Origin: a virus
Length of the DNA: 64,000 bases
Virus record (IMG/VR): IMGVR_UViG_3300045902_000666
Span: 37,744 to 101,743 of that record
Strand: one strand, 5' to 3'
Made by a program: the position numbers and the translations under genes. The stretch's first letter is position 1. Every line of letters begins with the position of its first letter. Positions 1,754 to 33,537 of this stretch are shown here, piece after piece. A model generated the notes under the pieces. That model was not told where the DNA came from. It was given only the letters and a program-made list of their open reading frames with translations, and ran no database searches.

Positions 1754-3562
1754 TCAGCGACCCATCACAATTTCTACACGTCTGTTTTTAGCACGTCCAG
1801 AGTTACTACCATTGTCAGCAATTGGTTCACGTTGACCTTTACCTTCAACTTTAGCAAAACGTGAGTTAGGGAAGCTTGCATGAGATTTATTTTGCAACCA
1901 CTGTTTAACTGCATCAGCTCTTTGTTGAGAAAGAACATCATTTCCATCAACAGTTCCTGTATTATCAGTGTGACCAAAAATTTCAACTTTCAATCCACTA
2001 GCAATTACAAGTTGGTCGTATAAATTTTCTAAAGTTCTTTCACCTGCAGGAGTAATAGTAGATTTACCACTTTCAAACTCAATAGACCAAGCACGTTTAG
2101 CAACAGTCTCAGACATATTATTACCTTCAGTGTAAGTTACTTTATCAGCAGAAGTGATATTTGTAGCCTTACTCTTAGCAGAGATGATATAGCTTAAGTC
2201 AAGTACATCTTCAATTTTAGGATATGTTGCAACATATTCAGGATAAAGAGAGCTAACTACATCACCAAACACTTTGTAAACTGAAGCATAAGTATTTGAT
2301 TTGTTTTCGCCAAGACCAAATAATTCTAAGTTATCTGCAAGGTTGTGAGCACGAGAACCACCAAGTTCTACAAGATTACCATCCTTATCAGTTTGTTTGA
2401 TACCACGATAGTAACGTACCCAATATGAACCATCTTTTTCATTATAAATTTTCGCAGAAATTTCACCAGCTTTATTCAAGGCAGCATCAAAAGATTTTAC
2501 TTGGTCACCACCTTCAGAAGCAGCTACGATAAAATTTACAACATGATTTCTGTTATCTTGCAACCACTTTTTAATACCAATTACAATATTTGGCATTTGT
2601 GAGCGATATTCAGCAGTAGATACGATAGAAACAAGTCCACCTTTATTTTCTGCAATCATAACGTCACCCGGAGTCCATGTAGTAGAACAGTTAACAGTAA
2701 CTTTTTTCTTCTCACCTGTTTTTATAGTTTTACCAGTATTAGGGTCAACTTTTACAACAGCACGTTCTTCGCTATATCCAGAGATATATTTTTGAGCAGC
2801 ATCAATGAAGTCATTTGCAGCTACGAAGTTCATTGCTTCAGGGTCATAAGTAGTTTCGTCTGTATTTACACGGATACCGTTATCAGAGCACCATTTTACA
2901 ACAATATTCCAATCACCATCACGAAGTACAGCAGCACAAACTAAACCTTTAGCATTTTGCGGATTTTCTTTTACGATAGGAGGTGCCATGAATTTATCTT
3001 CACCTTGAGATTTACCGCATGAATAAACGATTTGAGCAGTGTATTCATCACCTAATTTAGCAAGCTCTGCATTTACACCAGAAAGCCAAGAAGGTCCACC
3101 GTCACCCATGATTGCGATTAAATTTGTTCCTACGGCAGTAGTTGGATTACTTTTATAATCATTGGCAAACTTAATTAAGTTTTGAGCCATTTGATTACAG
3201 TCATCCTGACGTTTAATGGTAAGATTAACATTGTGTTTCTCCATTAAACTTCCTTTGGTAGTTTGAGGGCCACCATTGGCAAAATTAAGCCCCATTTGAG
3301 AGTTCCAAGCCATGATTTCCATAGTCATGCGTGGAGAATTTACTGAAGCCACTTCATCAGTAGGAAGTGCTACAGCTTCAATATTTTGTCCCGAAGTTGT
3401 TTTTGGGGCATCTGGGAGAACGATTTGTTGAACGTTTACAGATTGTTTTACTTCCTTAGTAAATAAGTACTCAGAATCAACAAGCAACCATTTTACAAAG
3501 AATACCAAGCCCACCAACAATAATCCTAATGTGAGCTTACCAGCGAGTGTTAACTTTTTCAT
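1754..3562 (-). CDS. Membrane-anchored protein with periplasmic-binding-like domain and C-terminal OmpA peptidoglycan-binding domain
   Basis: N-terminal TM; C-terminal GHTD..G..N..LS..RA..V and RAKNRRVEI OmpA motifs. Confidence 0.8.
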   Translation of the reverse strand: MKKLTLAGKLTLGLLLVGLVFFVKWLLVDSEYLFTKEVKQSVNVQQIVLPDAPKTTSGQNIEAVALPTDEVASVNSPRMTMEIMAWNSQMGLNFANGGPQTTKGSLMEKHNVNLTIKRQDDCNQMAQNLIKFANDYKSNPTTAVGTNLIAIMGDGGPSWLSGVNAELAKLGDEYTAQIVYSCGKSQGEDKFMAPPIVKENPQNAKGLVCAAVLRDGDWNIVVKWCSDNGIRVNTDETTYDPEAMNFVAANDFIDAAQKYISGYSEERAVVKVDPNTGKTIKTGEKKKVTVNCSTTWTPGDVMIAENKGGLVSIVSTAEYRSQMPNIVIGIKKWLQDNRNHVVNFIVAASEGGDQVKSFDAALNKAGEISAKIYNEKDGSYWVRYYRGIKQTDKDGNLVELGGSRAHNLADNLELFGLGENKSNTYASVYKVFGDVVSSLYPEYVATYPKIEDVLDLSYIISAKSKATNITSADKVTYTEGNNMSETVAKRAWSIEFESGKSTITPAGERTLENLYDQLVIASGLKVEIFGHTDNTGTVDGNDVLSQQRADAVKQWLQNKSHASFPNSRFAKVEGKGQREPIADNGSNSGRAKNRRVEIVMGR

Positions 3563-3599
3563 GTTTTTTAAATTTAGATTTTAATTGTTTAACGTTTAA

Positions 3600-3627
3600 T
3601 TATACGATTTTTTTTGTTTTAGGTTTC
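3600..3627 (-). promoter_or_regulatory. ECF-like promoter GAAAC-N16-CGTATAA
   Basis: Repeated motif upstream of the OmpA-domain gene. Confidence 0.65.
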
Positions 3628-3631
3628 AGAT

Positions 3632-4663
3632 TTATTCAAGAAAATTTCCAAACTTTCCTGAATCTGAATTTGATTCATTTCTCTTTACAGGTTGAGCCTG
3701 TTTATTATCAAACTGAATTGTATTCACGTTTGAATTAGGTAACCCTTTCATTTGATTTGAACCAAATATCGTTTCAATTCCTTTTTTCTCAAATTCTTCA
3801 AGCATTTTGAATCCTTGCTCTTCATAAATTGCATTATCAAGGTCAACGTTTCTGATAAATTCTTGAGAAGCATCAAGCATTCTTTCGATTTCACCAACTT
3901 TCATACTTGTATCATCAATCACAAACTCCATAGCTTGGTCAAAAAGAACTCTTTTATCATCATTACCTTTAATGATATTGGTAACAGATTTCATGATAGA
4001 ATGACTCTTTAAAATGTATTCACGCTCTTCTTTGCGAATTCTAACTTCAGACTTCAAGTTTTTAATCATAACATTAGAAACTTGTTCCATCTTTTGAAGA
4101 ATTTTAAAAAGAACTTCCATTTTAACCAAAAGATTTTCCATTTTTTTCTTAAATGTATCCAGACGAGCAGCTTCTTGGTTGTAGAAGTTTACATCAAGCT
4201 CAGAATAATTATTAGGGTCAGATTTTGCCTTTGAAGCTTTAGCTAGGTTTTGTCTGATTTCCTCACTCTTAGAATCAATGTTGGTTTTCAACTTTTTAAT
4301 TTGAGCCATCAAATCATCTAAATTGGTGTTGATAGTTTTTTGCTTTTCTTCAAGGTCCTCAACATAGCTTAACAAGATATTAATAGGATTCATCTGAACG
4401 AAGATTCCAGTTAAAAATCTCATTAAATTTTTATAAGAATACCACACCAAAGTTCTGAATCTTTTGTCCATGAGTAATGTAAAAATTACAAAAAGACCAA
4501 CACCCATACCAACAGCGTAATAGGTATTTTTTAATAATTCAAGAATAGTAGGTAGAGATTTGTATAATGCATATCCACCAAACCCAATAAGGGCAGCGAG
4601 TAAAATAACCCCTGGTTTACCTTCGGGTCTTTGCCAGAAATTTTTAGGCGACTTTGTTTCCAT
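3632..4663 (-). CDS. Two-TM coiled-coil protein (PspA-like architecture)
   Basis: Two N-terminal hydrophobic segments followed by long heptad helices. Confidence 0.55.
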   Translation of the reverse strand: METKSPKNFWQRPEGKPGVILLAALIGFGGYALYKSLPTILELLKNTYYAVGMGVGLFVIFTLLMDKRFRTLVWYSYKNLMRFLTGIFVQMNPINILLSYVEDLEEKQKTINTNLDDLMAQIKKLKTNIDSKSEEIRQNLAKASKAKSDPNNYSELDVNFYNQEAARLDTFKKKMENLLVKMEVLFKILQKMEQVSNVMIKNLKSEVRIRKEEREYILKSHSIMKSVTNIIKGNDDKRVLFDQAMEFVIDDTSMKVGEIERMLDASQEFIRNVDLDNAIYEEQGFKMLEEFEKKGIETIFGSNQMKGLPNSNVNTIQFDNKQAQPVKRNESNSDSGKFGNFLE

Positions 4664-29515: not shown

Positions 29516-31111
29516 TTAATCTAACTTAGAGTAGTTATTGATTGTGTTAATCAAAACATTCTTGTCTTGCTCTGCAACCTTCATAAGGTCAAAAACTTTT
29601 TCAGAGAAACCAGCTAAGGTTATAACTCTTTCGCCTTTGAACTGAAGTGTTGGAGAACCTTGCAAGTCAAAGTTATATACGAATGGGTTACATCCATATT
29701 TTGACTTATATTGGTTCAAGTATGTTTGACTAGCATCCATTTGCTGCCAAGCTTCACCGTCAGAAAGAATAATCAATCTGTCGTATTTCTTGTTCAACTT
29801 TTGGAAGAATGCGTGATAGCTTGTACCACCCATATTCTTATGATTGAACTGCTTGTTAATTGTGAATATACTATCTCTCAAAGAGAAGTTAGTATATTCA
29901 GCTGCTGTACCGAACAATACAACATCAGCGTTATTAGACTTAGCTAAGATAGCTGCAAACAAACCACCAATTTGTGTTGGTCTTCCGCTCATAGAGCCAG
30001 AACGGTCATAAATAACACAGGTTTCACCTGGTAATTTTGGAACGTTCTCGCAAGCGATTTCAATTGCATCTTCAAGAGCTTGAACAATTTTTCTTGATTC
30101 CTTGGAACCAAATTTGTTAATCTCTTCAATTGCAGTTGTGAATCTGAATGGAAGAACCAAAGAGTTTCTAATTAACTTAACATCAACCAAAAGTGCACAT
30201 GCTTCATCTACAAGCTCTGGAGCTTGAGTCATGATGTTTCTTAAGTTCTTCAAAAGAGCCATGTAACTGATTTTTCTAGTCTTAATCAAAGATGCCCAAG
30301 CCTCCTTTTTCAATTCATCTTTTTCATCTTCTGATTCAGCTTTCTTACCAGCTTCAGACAACTTAGCTTCCCAAGTTTGAGTGTTCTTAAGAGCACCAAT
30401 CATCAAAGCCTCAATAGCATTGATTGGGTATGTTTCTTTCTTAGAAGCTTTAACTTTTTTAATCAAAGCTTTTAATTCTGCAACTCTTTCTTTATTCTTT
30501 CTTGCGGTAGCATTTTCCAAAGAAGCATTTAATGTTTCTAGGTACTCTGCTCTATCAACTTCAACCATACCGTTATGCTCTACGTAAGATGGGTGAACGA
30601 TATTAGCAACGTCAATCAAGGAAATTTCTTTACCTTCACCACGATATTTAGCTAATTGATAAGCATCAAATTTTTCGAATGCTTTAGCAAAACCTTTCTT
30701 TAAAGAGTTTGGCAATGACTTATTTTTCTTGTTACCGAAGTAAACAGAGATAATTTCAGTCATGTCATCTGGTCTACGTACAACTTGTGCATAGAACTCT
30801 TTACCCCAAGGCTGACCAGAAATATACTTAGCAAGCTCTGCTCCTAATACGTGAGTAATAGAACGCATACCGAACTCGTTTCTTGCATAAATAGCTGCCT
30901 TAGCTGCAAATTTTGCATCTACTTTAGATAAGCAAGCAGACATTCTGTTAAGAGTATCATTGCTTGTTCTGTAGAACTGGTCCTCAACAAAAGATGTTAA
31001 AAGGATAGTAACCAATTCTAATTCTGCAGACTTTGTGTAAGCCTGACCACCTGCATAATTCACTGTTGGAATTCCTGAGGTTGGAGTTTTTTTGGTGTTG
31101 AACTTTGACAT
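29516..31111 (-). CDS. TROVE-domain (Ro60/Rsr-like) RNA-binding protein with vWA domain
   Basis: N.AGG.AY, YARNEFGMRS, FDAYQLAKY, TWE..LS, YMALLKNLRN, VLPFRF; vWA MIDAS DRSGSM...SDGE. Confidence 0.9.
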   Translation of the reverse strand: MSKFNTKKTPTSGIPTVNYAGGQAYTKSAELELVTILLTSFVEDQFYRTSNDTLNRMSACLSKVDAKFAAKAAIYARNEFGMRSITHVLGAELAKYISGQPWGKEFYAQVVRRPDDMTEIISVYFGNKKNKSLPNSLKKGFAKAFEKFDAYQLAKYRGEGKEISLIDVANIVHPSYVEHNGMVEVDRAEYLETLNASLENATARKNKERVAELKALIKKVKASKKETYPINAIEALMIGALKNTQTWEAKLSEAGKKAESEDEKDELKKEAWASLIKTRKISYMALLKNLRNIMTQAPELVDEACALLVDVKLIRNSLVLPFRFTTAIEEINKFGSKESRKIVQALEDAIEIACENVPKLPGETCVIYDRSGSMSGRPTQIGGLFAAILAKSNNADVVLFGTAAEYTNFSLRDSIFTINKQFNHKNMGGTSYHAFFQKLNKKYDRLIILSDGEAWQQMDASQTYLNQYKSKYGCNPFVYNFDLQGSPTLQFKGERVITLAGFSEKVFDLMKVAEQDKNVLINTINNYSKLD

Positions 31112-31184
31112 AATTTTTGTCTTTTTAAAAGTTAAACTTTGTTTTGTTTTTGTTTTTATATGTTAATTTAGGACATATACAAAT

Positions 31185-31219
31185 AAAAAAGGGATACCGT
31201 TTTGCAACAGTATCCCTTC
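31185..31219 (-). terminator. Intrinsic terminator after the ncRNA array
   Basis: AAGGGATAC/GTATCCCTT hairpin with T-run on the minus strand. Confidence 0.75.
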
Positions 31220-31226
31220 TAAAGCT

Positions 31227-31302
31227 TTGCGGGATTGATGATGTGGGTGTCTTTTTTGAAATTTTCAGAATTTTCGAAGTAACCCAGTATCTTGCCACAC
31301 AA
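31227..31302 (-). ncRNA. Y-RNA-like stem-loop, unit 1
   Basis: TTGTG-TGGCAA-GATAC-TGGGT-TACTTCG...AAAAAAGAC-ACCCA...ATCC-CGCAA. Confidence 0.65.
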
Positions 31303-31373
31303 TTTCCTACGGTCAGGCTAACAAAAAACAGCCGAAACTGTTCAGGGTATTGCCATCCCGTTTATATAACTTT

Positions 31374-31446
31374 AGTAGGGATAAGTACAGTGAGTGTCTT
31401 TTTTGTAATAAGCATTTACGAAGTAACTCAACCGTTTGCCACTACT
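31374..31446 (-). ncRNA. Y-RNA-like stem-loop, unit 2
   Basis: AGTAG-TGGCAA-ACGGT-TGAGT-TACTTCG...AAAAAAGAC-ACTCA-CTGT..ATCC-CTACT; covaries with unit 1. Confidence 0.65.
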
Positions 31447-31480
31447 TAATATCAATATGTTTAAAGAACTAAAGGAACAA

Positions 31481-31508
31481 TTATACGCAAATATACGAAA
31501 AAGGTTCC
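31481..31508 (-). promoter_or_regulatory. ECF-like promoter followed by boxA-like GTTCTTT (31463-31469)
   Basis: GGAAC-N16-CGTATAA directly upstream of RNA units 2 and 1. Confidence 0.7.
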
Positions 31509-31537
31509 ATAAAAATCAATTTTTTTTTAAAATTTTT

Positions 31538-32260
31538 TTGAGGGATTGGTGTAGAGAGTATTGTGAACTACCCGTTGCCTAAAGGCGAAGGGGCTTCAAA
31601 TAGAGGTAAATGAGAATATCACTTACATATTTTGAACTTTTCGTACTTCAACGATTCCTTTTCTCTGACAAGTCAGAGTTGTGCAGGACATCTCGATACG
31701 CTCAACAGGTCGTCCCAAACCTTGAACTTAATTCGCACAAATATTTTAATATGTTTGAAGGTTTTACGGAAACACAATTTTGTTTCCAACCAAAATACCT
31801 CAAAGAACTTATTTGCAAATATACAACAATTATTTCAAAATGCAAGTGATATTAGGAGGTCGCTTACATCCCCTTGCCTAAAGGCGAAGGGGTTTTACGC
31901 TCAAATAGATAAAAAATTTTGGACGTTGGGATAGTTTGGTTAAGCGACATCAATTTATCCTTACGCATAAAGTTTAGAGATTTACTGTAAGGTATGACCG
32001 TATACGTTTTAAGTCTATATACATCGACTGTAGCTTAGTAAGGTCAGCTAACTTTACCCTACGCTTTAGGATTCGTAACTCCCACATGGCTTTTGTAGTC
32101 ACAGAAAAAGCGTGAACCGTTTCTGCCCTCTAATCAGCTTCACAGGAATGGCCTCCACTGATTAAACCGTACAACTTCATTAGACTTTCATCCTCCATTA
32201 TACAGCTTGTTTTCATGATATTTGTTTATACGAAGTATCTCAAACACCTTGCCACAACAT
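31538..32260 (-). ncRNA. Y-RNA-like unit 3 with ~320-nt structured insert, interrupted by a MITE
   Basis: 5' TGGCAA-GGTGT-TT-GAGA-TACTTCG (32231-32254) pairs with 3' TCTC-T-ACACC-AATCCC (31542-31557). Confidence 0.55.
31563..31908 (-). mobile_element. IS605-type MITE without ORF (ends, promoter, omega-RNA-like segment)
   Basis: Ends resemble element 18731-20043 (GTGAACTACCC; GGTCGCTT.CATCCC); TTGCCTAAAGGCGAAGGGG at both ends; inserted 3' of TTTAT. Confidence 0.75.
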
Positions 32261-32444
32261 TTCCAAAATTTCAATTACTCAAAGAACAATCATTATATAT
32301 AGTTGCAAATTTATAAAATCTTATGAATATAGAAAAATTTTTTTCATTTTTTTTATAAGTTGCTGATAATCAGATAGAAAAATTTTTTTTAATTTATTTT
32401 TACCTAACAAAAACACGACTCTATTTATTAATAAACTTTATCTT

Positions 32445-32690
32445 ATGAAAGAAGGCGGAGAAGAAACTAAAGAAAAAATCATTTCACCAAACCCTAAAGA
32501 CGGTGAAGTATACGAATTTGGCTACTTAATCGGAGTTATTTTAGATTATTATGAATCTTCTAAAAGTAAAGTAGAAGATGGTGAAGCATGGAAAAAAGGA
32601 ACTGTTTATGAAGAAAGAATAGTTCCCGAAGAAATTGATTCACATATCAAAAGAGCATTTGCAAAGCAGCTGAATAAATTTTGCAAATAA
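32445..32690 (+). CDS. Hypothetical protein
   Basis: 81-aa ORF with TATTTAT upstream. Confidence 0.5.
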   Translation: MKEGGEETKEKIISPNPKDGEVYEFGYLIGVILDYYESSKSKVEDGEAWKKGTVYEERIVPEEIDSHIKRAFAKQLNKFCK

Positions 32691-32709
32691 TTTGATATAT
32701 TTATAGTAT

Positions 32710-33537
32710 ATGTTCCAGGACAACAACATATTACTATTAATATTTTCGTTTTTACCAGCGCTAATATATTCTTATGTTATAGCGTCTAACTCACCAGTAA
32801 ACTCCCTCAGTAAAAAAAGCAGTGTAGCTTATATTTCAATGGGATTTCTTTCTATTTTTTTTATTACAACTCTTCACTTTTTATTTCCACACTTTCACGA
32901 CCTAATGTTTGTGAATCCTATTGATTCAGTTGTAGTAGGAAATAAACTAATAGAAGTATATGAGCCAACTTTATCATCTATTGTAATACTAGCTTTTTTT
33001 CAAGTTGCTTTTTTTGAAGAGTTTTGTAAATGGGGAGCTTATAGAACCGGGTGTTATATTCGTGGAAAGTATAATAATTATGATGAACCATATGCAATAA
33101 TGTTTTATTCATGTATGGTCTCGGTAGGGTTTGCTTGTTTAGAAAACATACACTATGTTCAAAACGCTTTATTTGCTAATAATCAAATAGGCTCAAATAT
33201 AGACCCAGTTTATTTATTGTTTTTACGCTCTGTATCTGCAGTAATAATTCATATGGCATGTGGAATCATTTCAGGATTCTTTATGGCATTAGGAAGGAAG
33301 AAAAACGCTTTAATGAACTCTCTATATAATTTTATAGGTGTTATATCAGCATCTATAATACATGGTATTTATGATTTCAATTTAATGAAACCAAATAGCA
33401 ATAAAGATAATATAAAAATATTTGATGGTTTTGAAGTTCACTTCTCTAGCTTAATAATTATAGCAATGTGTTTGGTTTTGTGCTATATATTAGCCAGTAT
33501 CCTAAAAAAAGAAACTATTAAATCGCAGGAGATATAA
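32710..33537 (+). CDS. PrsW-family intramembrane glutamic/metalloprotease
   Basis: Multi-TM; EEFCK, GFACLEN, two conserved His (IIHM, IHGIYD). Confidence 0.85.
   Translation: MFQDNNILLLIFSFLPALIYSYVIASNSPVNSLSKKSSVAYISMGFLSIFFITTLHFLFPHFHDLMFVNPIDSVVVGNKLIEVYEPTLSSIVILAFFQVAFFEEFCKWGAYRTGCYIRGKYNNYDEPYAIMFYSCMVSVGFACLENIHYVQNALFANNQIGSNIDPVYLLFLRSVSAVIIHMACGIISGFFMALGRKKNALMNSLYNFIGVISASIIHGIYDFNLMKPNSNKDNIKIFDGFEVHFSSLIIIAMCLVLCYILASILKKETIKSQEI

What the first reader, a model, noticed from the sequence alone, without database searches (positions are those of the whole stretch)
31909..32271. ~320-nt highly structured RNA domain inserted in the loop of Y-like unit 3
Seen on the minus strand: helix GCTGTATAAT/GTTGTACGGT enclosing GGAT-GAAA-GTCT (GNRA loop); TAATCAG/CTGATTA with a kink-turn-like TGGA/GTGAAG loop; GCAGAAA/TTTCTGT competing with ACGCTTT/AAAGCGT; CCTTAC/GTAAGG. 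An alternative closing helix AAATTTTGG..ATGTTG/CAACGT.CCAAAATTT ends just before the MITE and could close the RNA despite the insertion. There is no ORF and GC is above background. Inference: a large effector or cargo RNA tethered to Ro60; I cannot assign a class.
Basis: partly seen in the sequence, partly recalled or inferred. Interest (0 to 1): 0.75.

Follow-up and report, generated by a model that had tools for sequence, protein, structure and literature searches.

The report
Long phage Y RNA, novel module
The flagged stretch is a real, conserved RNA of about 360 bases: a partner RNA (Y RNA) of the phage's Ro60 protein in which the usual tRNA-like part is replaced by a large folded domain matching no catalogued RNA family, whose job is still unknown.

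Summary
Observation confirmed; interpretation partly supported. Window 32271-31914 (minus strand) is one self-closing RNA upstream of a Ro60/TROVE gene. Its two ends carry the handle (GUGGCAA..GAGAUACUUCG / ..AACUAUCCC) shared by Ro60-adjacent RNAs in more than 100 phage loci, some of which carry classic tRNA-like YrlA modules. Between the handle strands lies a module of about 260 nt with eight helices: a GAAA-capped hairpin, a hairpin matching the kink-turn consensus, and a possible pseudoknot.

Only two other loci (L043, L008) hold the same module, at about 51% identity. Two covariance models built from L043 alone hit the window side by side (E 7e-4 and 2e-5). A sequence-only model of the 3' part finds nothing. 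31 of 61 modelled pairs change on both sides and stay paired. Rfam gives no match and there is no conserved ORF.

The 346-nt element (31563-31908) lies downstream of the RNA, not inside it, and an estuary relative has 81 other bases in its place.

Expression, Ro60 binding and function are untested; a Ro60-tethered adaptor is my inference. This scan earlier noted a long Y RNA on other DNA (e1-5336073), but its module is not homologous. New variant of a known kind.

The parts
32306..32313 (-). Bacteroidota-type -7 promoter box TAAATTTG (TAnnTTTG) upstream of the RNA; likely start of transcription a few bases downstream
   Evidence: Sequence. The same box type precedes the other two units (about 31816 and 31495) and the homologous unit in L043. 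The promoter consensus is from my own knowledge. Not tested.
32278..32287 (-). Leader motif GTTCTTTGAG (boxA-like), shared by all Y-unit transcripts
   Evidence: GTTCTTTRA occurs 11 times in the window against 3.7 expected. It sits after each Y-unit promoter here and in L043, L005, L006, L009, L071 and L073. An antitermination role is inference.
32231..32271 (-). 5' strand of the Y-RNA handle: AAAUUUUGG, AUGUUG, bulged U, GG, CAA loop, GGU, UGAG, then AUACUUCG
   Evidence: The motif G(U)GGCAA..GAGWUACUUCG recurs in Ro60-adjacent units of more than 100 loci. Pairing with 31948-31914 gives -23.1 kcal/mol. UGAG/CUUA is the same pair set as in the main-family alignment A9.
32208..32230 (-). A/C-rich, probably single-stranded linker ending in the conserved AAACAAG
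   Evidence: AACAAG is invariant in the window, L043 and L008. No conserved pairing was found.
32165..32207 (-). H1: long hairpin capped by GGAU-GAAA-GUCU (GNRA tetraloop)
   Evidence: helix 1: 10 pairs, 5 with changes on both sides, 100% paired. The estuary variant at 32170 turns U-A into U.G.
32131..32164 (-). H2: 7-bp stem closing a kink-turn/K-loop-like motif (5' UGGA-GG, 5-nt loop, CC-UGU-GA-AG 3')
   Evidence: helix 2: 4 of 6 pairs changed on both sides. UGGAGG..CCUNUGAAR is invariant in all three sequences and fits C-stem, 3-nt bulge and tandem G.A/A.G.
32101..32126 (-). H3: GCAGAAA/UUUCUGU with a small apical hairpin
   Evidence: helix 4: 4 pairs changed on both sides, 92.6% paired. 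The estuary variant at 32101 turns G.U into G-C.
32082..32089 (-). H4 (uncertain): CCA-UG-UGG, possible counterpart of CCC-GAAU-GGG in L043 and L008
   Evidence: The covariance model did not align it in the window.
32059..32078 (-). H5: UUACG/CGUAG hairpin with the conserved loop UCCUAAA
   Evidence: helix 1: 5 of 7 pairs changed on both sides. CCUAA is invariant in the loop.
32031..32051 (-). H6: UAGCU/AGCUA hairpin with an ACCU-containing loop
   Evidence: (helix 2: 4 of 5 pairs changed on both sides).
31999..32029 (-). Possible H-type pseudoknot: S1 AGUC/GACU, S2 UGUAUAU/GUAUACG, A-rich third loop UAAAAC
   Evidence: S1: (helix 3, 1 compensatory pair). S2: (94% paired, 1 compensatory pair, but the alternating AU sequence also pairs at 72-73% when slid by 2). 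Plausible, not proven.
31959..31992 (-). H7: two-tier hairpin CCUUAC/GUAAGG plus GUAAA/UUUAU
   Evidence: L043 and L008 have a two-tier hairpin at the same place, but the alignment of the window here is ambiguous.
31911..31948 (-). 3' strand of the handle (GUCGCUUA-ACC-AAACUAU-CCC-AACGU-CCAAAAUUU) followed by a run of U
   Evidence: Homologous to ACCAACUAUCCC in L043 and L008. Conserved in the estuary relative up to 31909.
29516..31111 (-). Ro60/TROVE + vWA protein gene (531 aa), the presumed protein partner
   Evidence: PF05731, E 4e-21; PF25045.

Best explanation
Window 32271-31914 (minus strand) encodes a long Y RNA of about 358 nt.

Its 5' and 3' ends pair into the handle that marks Ro60 partner RNAs in this group of large phages. 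Ro60, whose gene lies 0.8 kb downstream on the same strand, is expected to bind there. Where bacterial YrlA RNAs carry a tRNA-like module, and the neighbouring small units carry a roughly 25-nt loop, this RNA carries a module of about 260 nt joined by an A-rich single-stranded linker. The module has about eight helices: a GAAA-capped hairpin, a kink-turn-like hairpin, a CCUAA loop and a possible pseudoknot.

Shown: the RNA-level conservation, the fold and the handle.

Inferred: the RNA is made from its own Bacteroidota-type promoter and binds the phage Ro60 through the handle. The module then acts as a tethered adaptor that brings a specific partner to the Ro60 ring. The partner could be a host RNA-processing enzyme such as PNPase, another protein that recognises the kink-turn, or an RNA. 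This is how Deinococcus Yrn1 tethers PNPase.
For: 1. Context: a Ro60/TROVE gene lies on the same strand.
2. Handle: GUGGCAA..GAGAUACUUCG / AACUAUCCC recurs beside Ro60 in more than 100 loci. Units with the same handle in L005, L064, L071, L073, L100 and L110 carry T-arm or D-arm tRNA-like modules. The Rfam tRNA model hits those in L064 and L100.
3. Homology of the whole module with L043 and L008: nhmmer E 3.6e-8. Models R1 and R2, built from L043 only, hit 32211-32091 and 32087-31931 (E 6.7e-4 and 1.9e-5). These were the only R1 hit and the best R2 hit in 64 kb, adjacent and in order. There was no hit at E below 0.01 in 94 other Ro60 loci, 500 kb in all.
4. Structure carries the signal. The sequence-only model R3 of the same 170 nt finds nothing in the window at E up to 10. 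For L008 it gives 67.6 bits against 113.6 with pairs.
5. Pair counts: 97.6% and 95.4% of cells are paired. 13 and 18 pairs changed on both sides, against 0-4 when the partner is slid. Loops and the kink-turn core are invariant.
6. Population data: an estuary relative has 1 difference in 186 nt of the module, against 30 substitutions and 32 gaps in the next 563 nt. Both visible substitutions keep pairs.
7. Flanking proteins of the window and L043 are only 42-49% identical, yet the RNA is still recognisable.
8. No conserved ORF and no Rfam family.
Against: - There are only three independent sequences, so covariation cannot be given a proper significance. The alignments used for counting were fitted to the model structure.
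- Folding energy is not better than shuffled sequence (z = -0.56).
- No RNA data exist for expression, ends or processing.
- Ro60 binding is inferred from position and a shared motif only.
- The Rfam YrlA model does not match any unit here.
- The adaptor role is an analogy. No partner is identified, and the 101-kb fragment encodes no recognisable L7Ae-type protein.
- H4, H7 and the second pseudoknot stem are uncertain in the window.
Confidence: 0.6

Rival explanations
1. Layout proposed by the first reader. The 5' handle at 32255-32231 pairs with the distal strand at 31559-31540, so the 320-nt domain and the 346-nt mobile element both sit inside the loop of one interrupted Y-like unit.
For: The distal strand can pair with the 5' strand (GGUGU/ACACC, GAGA/UCUC; -17.0 kcal/mol). 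The 346-nt element really is an insertion or replacement.
Against: - The proximal strand pairs better (-23.1 kcal/mol).
- The proximal strand is the one homologous to the 3' handle of L043 and L008.
- In L043 the next unit's own 5' handle follows 32 nt after the long unit. By analogy, the distal strand would be the remnant of a neighbouring small unit.
- The estuary relative keeps both strands with 81 nt between them.
Confidence: 0.07
2. The module is a decoy or molecular mimic rather than an adaptor. It would imitate a host RNA (for example a kink-turn-bearing rRNA or leader element), soak up a host factor or defence nuclease, or occupy the host's own Ro60 pathway. The handle would serve only for stability.
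For: YrlA modules mimic tRNA (PMC4201824). The kink-turn-like core, the GAAA loop and the CCUAA loop are invariant while stems vary, as expected for recognition surfaces. The phage carries many tRNA genes and other translation-related oddities.
Against: No similarity to any Rfam family, rRNA and leaders included, even at E up to 10. No candidate target was found.
Confidence: 0.15
3. The module is an autonomous functional RNA (ribozyme, self-splicing element or ligand sensor) that merely lies inside the Y-RNA gene. Removing it would leave an ordinary small Y RNA.
For: Its size and complexity (tetraloop, kink-turn, possible pseudoknot) are typical of ribozymes and riboswitches. It occupies exactly the loop position of the small units.
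Against: No match to group I or II introns, known ribozymes or riboswitches in Rfam. The group II domain-5-like look of H1 in the window (AGC..GAAA) is not kept in L043 or L008. No ORF or mobility signs. The module is found only inside the handle, in three of three cases.
Confidence: 0.1
4. No function: spacer or decayed sequence whose helices are chance products of a moderately GC-rich stretch.
For: The MFE z-score is not significant. Only three members are known.
Against: It remains recognisable across phages whose flanking proteins are below 50% identical. It is detected only when pairs are modelled. 31 pairs show compensatory changes. It is near-invariant in a relative whose neighbouring DNA differs by about 11%.
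Confidence: 0.04

Closest known systems
Bacterial and phage YrlA Y RNAs (Rfam RF02553; Chen et al. 2014, PMC4201824)
   Same: Encoded beside a Ro60/TROVE gene. The 5' and 3' ends form a long stem with a conserved 5'-strand motif that includes CUUCG(A). A functional module sits in the apical position. Several units occur per locus. Relatives of this locus carry true tRNA-like units on the same handle.
   Different: About 358 nt, against 80-130 nt for all characterised Y RNAs (PMC4201824). The module is not tRNA-like (no ARAGORN or tRNA-model hit). It is an eight-helix domain with a kink-turn-like motif. The Rfam YrlA model does not match.
Long Y-like RNA of huge freshwater phages
   Same: A Y-RNA handle (UGAG/CUUA, GAGAUACUUCG) carries a structured module of about 240 nt in place of the tRNA-like part, upstream of a Ro60 about 50% identical to this one.
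   Different: The modules are not detectably homologous: nhmmer and both covariance models find nothing in 94 such loci. The handle subtype differs (AGCGAUAG against GUGGCAA). The position differs too: last unit followed by a terminator there, first unit with its own promoter here.
Deinococcus radiodurans Yrn1 in the Ro60-Y RNA-PNPase machine (RYPER), and Thermus phage phiLo Yrl1/Yrl2 (PMC12135203)
   Same: This is the functional model used here. The handle binds Ro60 and the rest of the RNA tethers an exoribonuclease. The phage phiLo Ro60 and its Yrl RNAs assemble with host PNPase.
   Different: Those RNAs are small. Nothing here shows PNPase binding, and the module's sequence and architecture are unrelated.
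Kink-turn / K-loop motifs (Kt-7, U4 5' stem-loop, box C'/D' K-loops)
   Same: H2 has a 2-bp G-C stem, a 3-nt bulge (UNU), tandem G.A and A.G, an A.G third position, then a regular helix. This core is invariant in all three sequences.
   Different: The match is by sequence pattern only. The canonical stem is only 2 bp capped by a 5-nt loop. No L7Ae-family protein was found in the 101-kb fragment.

Membership tests
Y RNA of the bacterial/phage YrlA kind | Gene lies next to a Ro60/TROVE gene | tested here: met
   The Ro60 ORF is at 29516-31111 (-), with PF05731 at E 4e-21. The RNA lies 0.8 kb upstream on the same strand.
Y RNA of the bacterial/phage YrlA kind | The 5' and 3' ends pair into a long stem carrying the conserved Ro60-handle motif | tested here: met
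   Closing stem of about 24 bp, -23.1 kcal/mol. The 5' motif is shared with units in more than 100 Ro60 loci, including ones with tRNA-like modules.
Y RNA of the bacterial/phage YrlA kind | tRNA-like module (T arm, D arm, acceptor-like stem) | tested here: not met
   No ARAGORN or Rfam tRNA hit in 31112-32444, and no GGUUCGAAUCC-type T loop. Relatives' units do have one.
Y RNA of the bacterial/phage YrlA kind | Matches the Rfam YrlA covariance model (RF02553) | tested here: not met
   Not listed at the gathering score or at E up to 10. It is also not hit in ten related loci.
Y RNA of the bacterial/phage YrlA kind | Length 80-130 nt | tested here: not met
   About 358 nt from 32271 to 31914. 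The size range is from PMC4201824.
Y RNA of the bacterial/phage YrlA kind | Bound and stabilised by Ro60 | not testable with these tools
   Needs EMSA or RIP.
Long Y-like RNA of huge freshwater phages (unit B type) | Module homologous to the conserved unit-B module of about 240 nt (GUGAAAAAGUCC, AGCGACAGC loop, GGCAAAGUUUCGGGAG) | tested here: not met
   nhmmer in both directions and models R1 and R2 give no match between the two types. The motifs are absent from the window unit.
Kink-turn motif | C stem, 3-nt bulge, tandem sheared G.A/A.G, NC stem | tested here: met
   The sequence pattern CC-UNU-GA-AR opposite U-G-GA-GG is invariant in three sequences. The 3D kink is not testable here.
Catalogued structured RNAs (group I/II introns, ribozymes, riboswitches, RNase P, tmRNA, GOLLD, ROOL and others) | Match to an Rfam 15 covariance model | tested here: not met
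   Nothing at the gathering score. Only noise at E up to 10 in the window, L043 and L008. No tmRNA by ARAGORN.
H-type pseudoknot | Two interleaved stems kept by covariation | tested here: inconclusive
   S1 has 1 compensatory pair. S2 is 94% paired with 1 compensatory pair, but the slid register also pairs at 72-73% because of the AU repeat.

The most novel reading that the evidence does not exclude
Y-RNA handles in large phages would be general display scaffolds. At least two unrelated structured modules of 240-260 nt (this one and the freshwater 'unit B' type), besides tRNA mimics, have been grafted onto the same Ro60-binding handle. On this reading the present module is a self-contained machine part of a new RNA class, for example a specific protein-recruiting domain, a mimic of a host RNA, or a catalytic or ligand-sensing fold. 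It would retarget the phage Ro60 ring during infection.
Probability: 0.3. Interest if true: 0.8.

Novelty: new variant of a known kind. Interest (0 to 1): 0.62.

Why it matters
All characterised Y RNAs are small (80-130 nt). Their non-handle part is either a loop that binds proteins or, in bacteria, a tRNA mimic.

A Y RNA of about 360 nt with a conserved multi-helix module would show that the Ro60 handle can carry large, elaborate RNA domains. The module here is unrelated to the one other long type seen in this scan. That would give a concrete route to the open question of what Ro60-Y RNA particles do for phages: the module is a ready-made bait for finding the partner that the phage brings to Ro60. 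It also adds a candidate new structured RNA class with a textbook-like kink-turn.

Tried and rejected
- Thermodynamics: MFE z = -0.56, so energy alone gives no support.
- blastn of the whole intergenic region against 50,697 phage records: no match.
- Pattern scans for more members returned only chance hits in coding DNA (checked). The scans were GTGGCAAGGTNNNNGAGATAC, GTGGAGGN{4,6}CCTNTGAA, and GTGGAGGNNATNCCTNTGAA in viral and genome contigs. L250 and L065 were looked at and are coding DNA.
- PrsW-based and L008-Ro60-based locus searches gave 7 loci without the module.
The DNA behind the closer Ro60 relatives P0002-P0009 (98-59% identity) could therefore not be fetched.
- Sequencing runs: no RNA holder was listed. 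One run labelled RNA-Seq (X19) gave a single 151-nt contig over 32185-32335 that also covers the promoter and is probably DNA. No statement on expression is possible.
- L7Ae (PF01248) and RtcB (PF01139): no match in the 101-kb, 37%-complete record. This is not informative.
- The 81-aa neighbour protein: no Pfam family and no usable Atlas hit.
- Resemblances recalled and dropped. Group II intron domain 5 (H1 of the window has AGC..GAAA..GUU) is not kept in L043 or L008. RNase P CR-I (GAAAGUC) has no Rfam support. A GAAA/11-nt-receptor contact with the CCUAA loop, and an AGG/CCU linker-loop pairing, involve invariant bases and so cannot be tested.
- Coding under TAG=Q or TGA=W: an 80-aa frame appears in the window only and is not conserved.

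Full report
**What the window is.** The window is part of a 101,743-bp IMG/VR virus record judged 37% complete. It is AT-rich (30.9% GC) and has a tRNA array that includes a CUA-anticodon tRNA. At 29516-31111 on the minus strand lies a 531-aa Ro60/TROVE + vWA protein. The 1.3 kb upstream of it (31112-32444) has no ORF longer than 57 aa on that strand. It holds three Bacteroidota-type promoter boxes (TAnnTTTG), each followed by the motif GTTCTTTRA.

**The units are Y RNAs.** A Ro60-based search returned 128 related loci.
- In almost all loci with enough upstream DNA, the gene is preceded by units that begin with [AG]GYGA/GUGGCAA..GAGWUACUUCG. Each unit ends in a strand that pairs back to that start.
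- In more distant loci (L005, L064, L071, L073, L100, L110) the same handle encloses T-arm and D-arm sequences. The Rfam tRNA model hits two of these.
- This is the architecture described for bacterial and phage YrlA RNAs (PMC4201824), although the Rfam YrlA model itself matches none of them.
- The window's small units (about 31443-31375 and 31300-31230) and the flagged unit share the subtype GUGGCAA../..AWCUAUCCC, which is also seen in L073 and L043.

**The flagged stretch is one self-closing RNA.**
- The 5' strand (32271-32231) pairs with 31948-31914 through AAAUUUUGG/CCAAAAUUU, AUGUUG/CAACGU, a bulged U, GG/CC, an asymmetric loop (CAA against AAACUAU), GGU/ACC and UGAG/CUUA. The energy is -23.1 kcal/mol.
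It is the real one, because its 3' strand is the homologue of ACCAACUAUCCC in L043 and L008.
- UGAG/CUUA is also the pair set conserved in 31 main-family RNAs.
- The distal strand beyond the '346-nt element' pairs less well (-17.0 kcal/mol). It resembles the 3' half of a small unit.

**The 346-nt element is outside the RNA.** Contigs of an estuary metagenome (run X6) join 31562 to 31909 with 81 other bases in place of 31563-31908. The conserved sequence of the long RNA runs up to 31909, that is, through the closing helix and the U run. In L043 the next unit's 5' handle follows 32 nt after the long unit. I therefore infer that the element displaced the 5' half of a small neighbouring unit and left an orphan 3' half at 31559-31540.

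**Homologues of the module.** Only two of the roughly 390 loci fetched hold the same module: L043:1700-2080 (complete) and L008:1-320 (5' end cut). Both are from freshwater sediment metagenomes.
- nhmmer from L043 hits the window at 32288-32108 with E 3.6e-8.
- I built two covariance models from L043 alone, using my reading of its helices.
- R1 (H1-H4, 113 nt) hits the window only at 32211-32091 (26.6 bits, E 6.7e-4).
- R2 (H5 to the 3' handle, 170 nt) has its best hit at 32087-31931 (23.8 bits, E 1.9e-5).
- The two hits abut and are in the right order.
- Neither model gives a hit at E below 0.01 in 94 other Ro60 loci, 500 kb of similar DNA. The one hit at E 0.012 lies in a methyltransferase gene.
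- A sequence-only model of the same 170 nt (R3) finds nothing in the window at E up to 10. For L008 it scores 67.6 bits against 113.6 with pairs. The 3' half is thus recognisable only through its base pairs.

**Pair counts.** On the model-fitted alignments of the three sequences, 97.6% and 95.4% of cells are standard pairs. 13 of 30 and 18 of 31 pairs have changes on both sides. When the 3' partners are slid by 1-3 columns, 26-47% of cells pair and 0-4 pairs change on both sides.
- The best-supported helices are H2 (4 of 6 pairs compensatory), H5 (5 of 7), H6 (4 of 5), H1 (5 of 10) and H3 (4 of 9).
- Caveats: there are only three sequences. The window is about 51% identical to the other two. 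The alignments lean towards the model. The window's H7 register is ambiguous. H4 is not aligned.
- The second pseudoknot stem is only weakly supported.

**Population evidence.** In the estuary relative, 31909-32094 has 1 difference in 186 nt and 32065-32210 has 5-7 in 146. By contrast, 31000-31562 has 30 substitutions and 32 gap positions in 563 nt. The two module substitutions that the tool listed turn G.U into G-C in H3 (32101) and U-A into U.G in H1 (32170). 31 further differences across the laid stretch were not shown.

**Anatomy of the module.** After the conserved AUACUUCG comes an A/C-rich linker of about 25 nt ending in the invariant AACAAG. The helices then follow in this order.
- H1 is capped by GAAA.
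- H2's invariant core UGGA-GG..CC-UNU-GA-AR fits the kink-turn rule: a 2-bp C stem capped by five bases, a 3-nt bulge, G.A and A.G, an A.G third position, then a regular helix.
- H3, then a short G-C hairpin (H4).
- H5 has the invariant CCUAA in its loop.
- H6, then a possible H-type pseudoknot with an A-rich third loop.
- H7 is a two-tier hairpin.

Stems vary while loops and the kink-turn core are invariant, which is the usual pattern of a functional RNA.

**What it is not.**
- No Rfam 15 family matches the module in the window, L043 or L008, even at E up to 10.
- There is no tmRNA or tRNA.
- No ORF is conserved under code 11, TAG=Q or code 4.
- It is not homologous to the module of about 240 nt in the abundant freshwater 'unit B' long Y RNA.

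**Gene context.** The window and L043 share the following block.
- A Clp-type ATPase (seen in the window only, because the L043 locus is cut).
- A conserved 186-aa protein.
- A divergently transcribed PrsW-like membrane protease with an 81-88-aa protein.
- The long RNA, further Y units, then Ro60.

L005, L006 and L009 lack both the protease pair and the long RNA. In L388-L391 the protease pair lies beside a different non-coding stretch, so the link is loose.

**How it most likely works.**
- Shown: a conserved, folded RNA on a Y-RNA handle next to Ro60.
- Inferred: it is transcribed from its own promoter and bound by the phage Ro60 at the handle. The module, held on a flexible A-rich linker, acts as an adaptor that brings a specific partner to the ring. 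The models for this are Deinococcus Yrn1 with PNPase, and Thermus phage phiLo Ro60 and Yrl RNAs with host PNPase (PMC12135203).
- A decoy or mimic role and an autonomous ribozyme or sensor role remain possible. Chance is unlikely.

**Limits.**
- No RNA run was available.
- Binding cannot be tested here.

**Verdict.** This is a real and unusual member of the Y-RNA world: a new variant of a known kind, with a module that is itself a candidate new RNA class.

Noticed in passing
window 31563-31908: This 346-nt segment is an insertion or replacement. An estuary relative has 81 other bases here. It starts and ends with the direct repeat CTATTTGA plus the hairpin CCCCTTCGCCTTTAGGCAAGGGG, which has only these two copies in the window. 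The element occurs once in the 101-kb record. It carries its own TATATTTG box and a GTTCTTTGA motif. Its promoter and leader part (31723-31871) lies at about 90% identity, high depth and with unlike flanks in sludge and wastewater runs.
   Followed up: partly
window 31540-31559 (-): An orphan 3' handle strand (ACUCUCUACACCAAUCCCUC) has no 5' partner of its own. It is probably the remnant of a small Y unit whose 5' half was displaced by the 346-nt element.
   Followed up: partly
window 32279-32287, 31800-31808, 31461-31469, 20548-20556 (all -), and others: GTTCTTTRA occurs 11 times against 3.7 expected. It sits just after the promoter of each Y-RNA unit and about 120 nt upstream of the tRNA pair at 20277-20427. 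It also occurs at the start of Y-RNA arrays in L043, L005, L006, L009, L071 and L073. It may be a boxA-like antitermination signal for stable-RNA operons.
   Followed up: partly
window 32445-33537 (+); L043 425-1532 (-); L388 about 3226-4295: A PrsW-like intramembrane protease (275 aa) and an 81-88-aa protein of no known family are transcribed divergently from the long RNA in both the window and L043 (45% and 42% identity). In L388-L391 the same pair lies beside a different non-coding stretch of about 170 nt that ends in a terminator.
   Followed up: partly
L001, L002, L010-L132 (for example L015:1374-1612): The main freshwater family has a small Y unit followed by a conserved long Y RNA of about 250 nt. 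Its motifs are GUGAAAAAGUCC, an AGCGACAGC loop on a covarying stem, and GGCAAAG..CUUUGU. It is closed by GCAAACA/UGUUUGC and a terminator. This matches the earlier scan note e1-5336073.
   Followed up: partly
L043 2276-2416: Between the last Y unit and Ro60 there is a weak match to the Rfam L10_leader model (31.1 bits, below the cut-off of 44, E 0.039). It includes the terminator hairpin and may be chance.
   Followed up: no
window 31306-31359: The spacer between the two small Y units (a hairpin around GGGAUGGCAAUACCC and CAGUUUCGGCUG) is the most variable part in the estuary relative, with about 20 substitutions and several deletions. The flanking handles are kept.
   Followed up: no
L080 340-1060; L124 4290-5300: Some relatives carry six or seven tandem Y-like units. 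In L124 they lie downstream of the Ro60 gene and use a TTGCAG.. handle variant.
   Followed up: no
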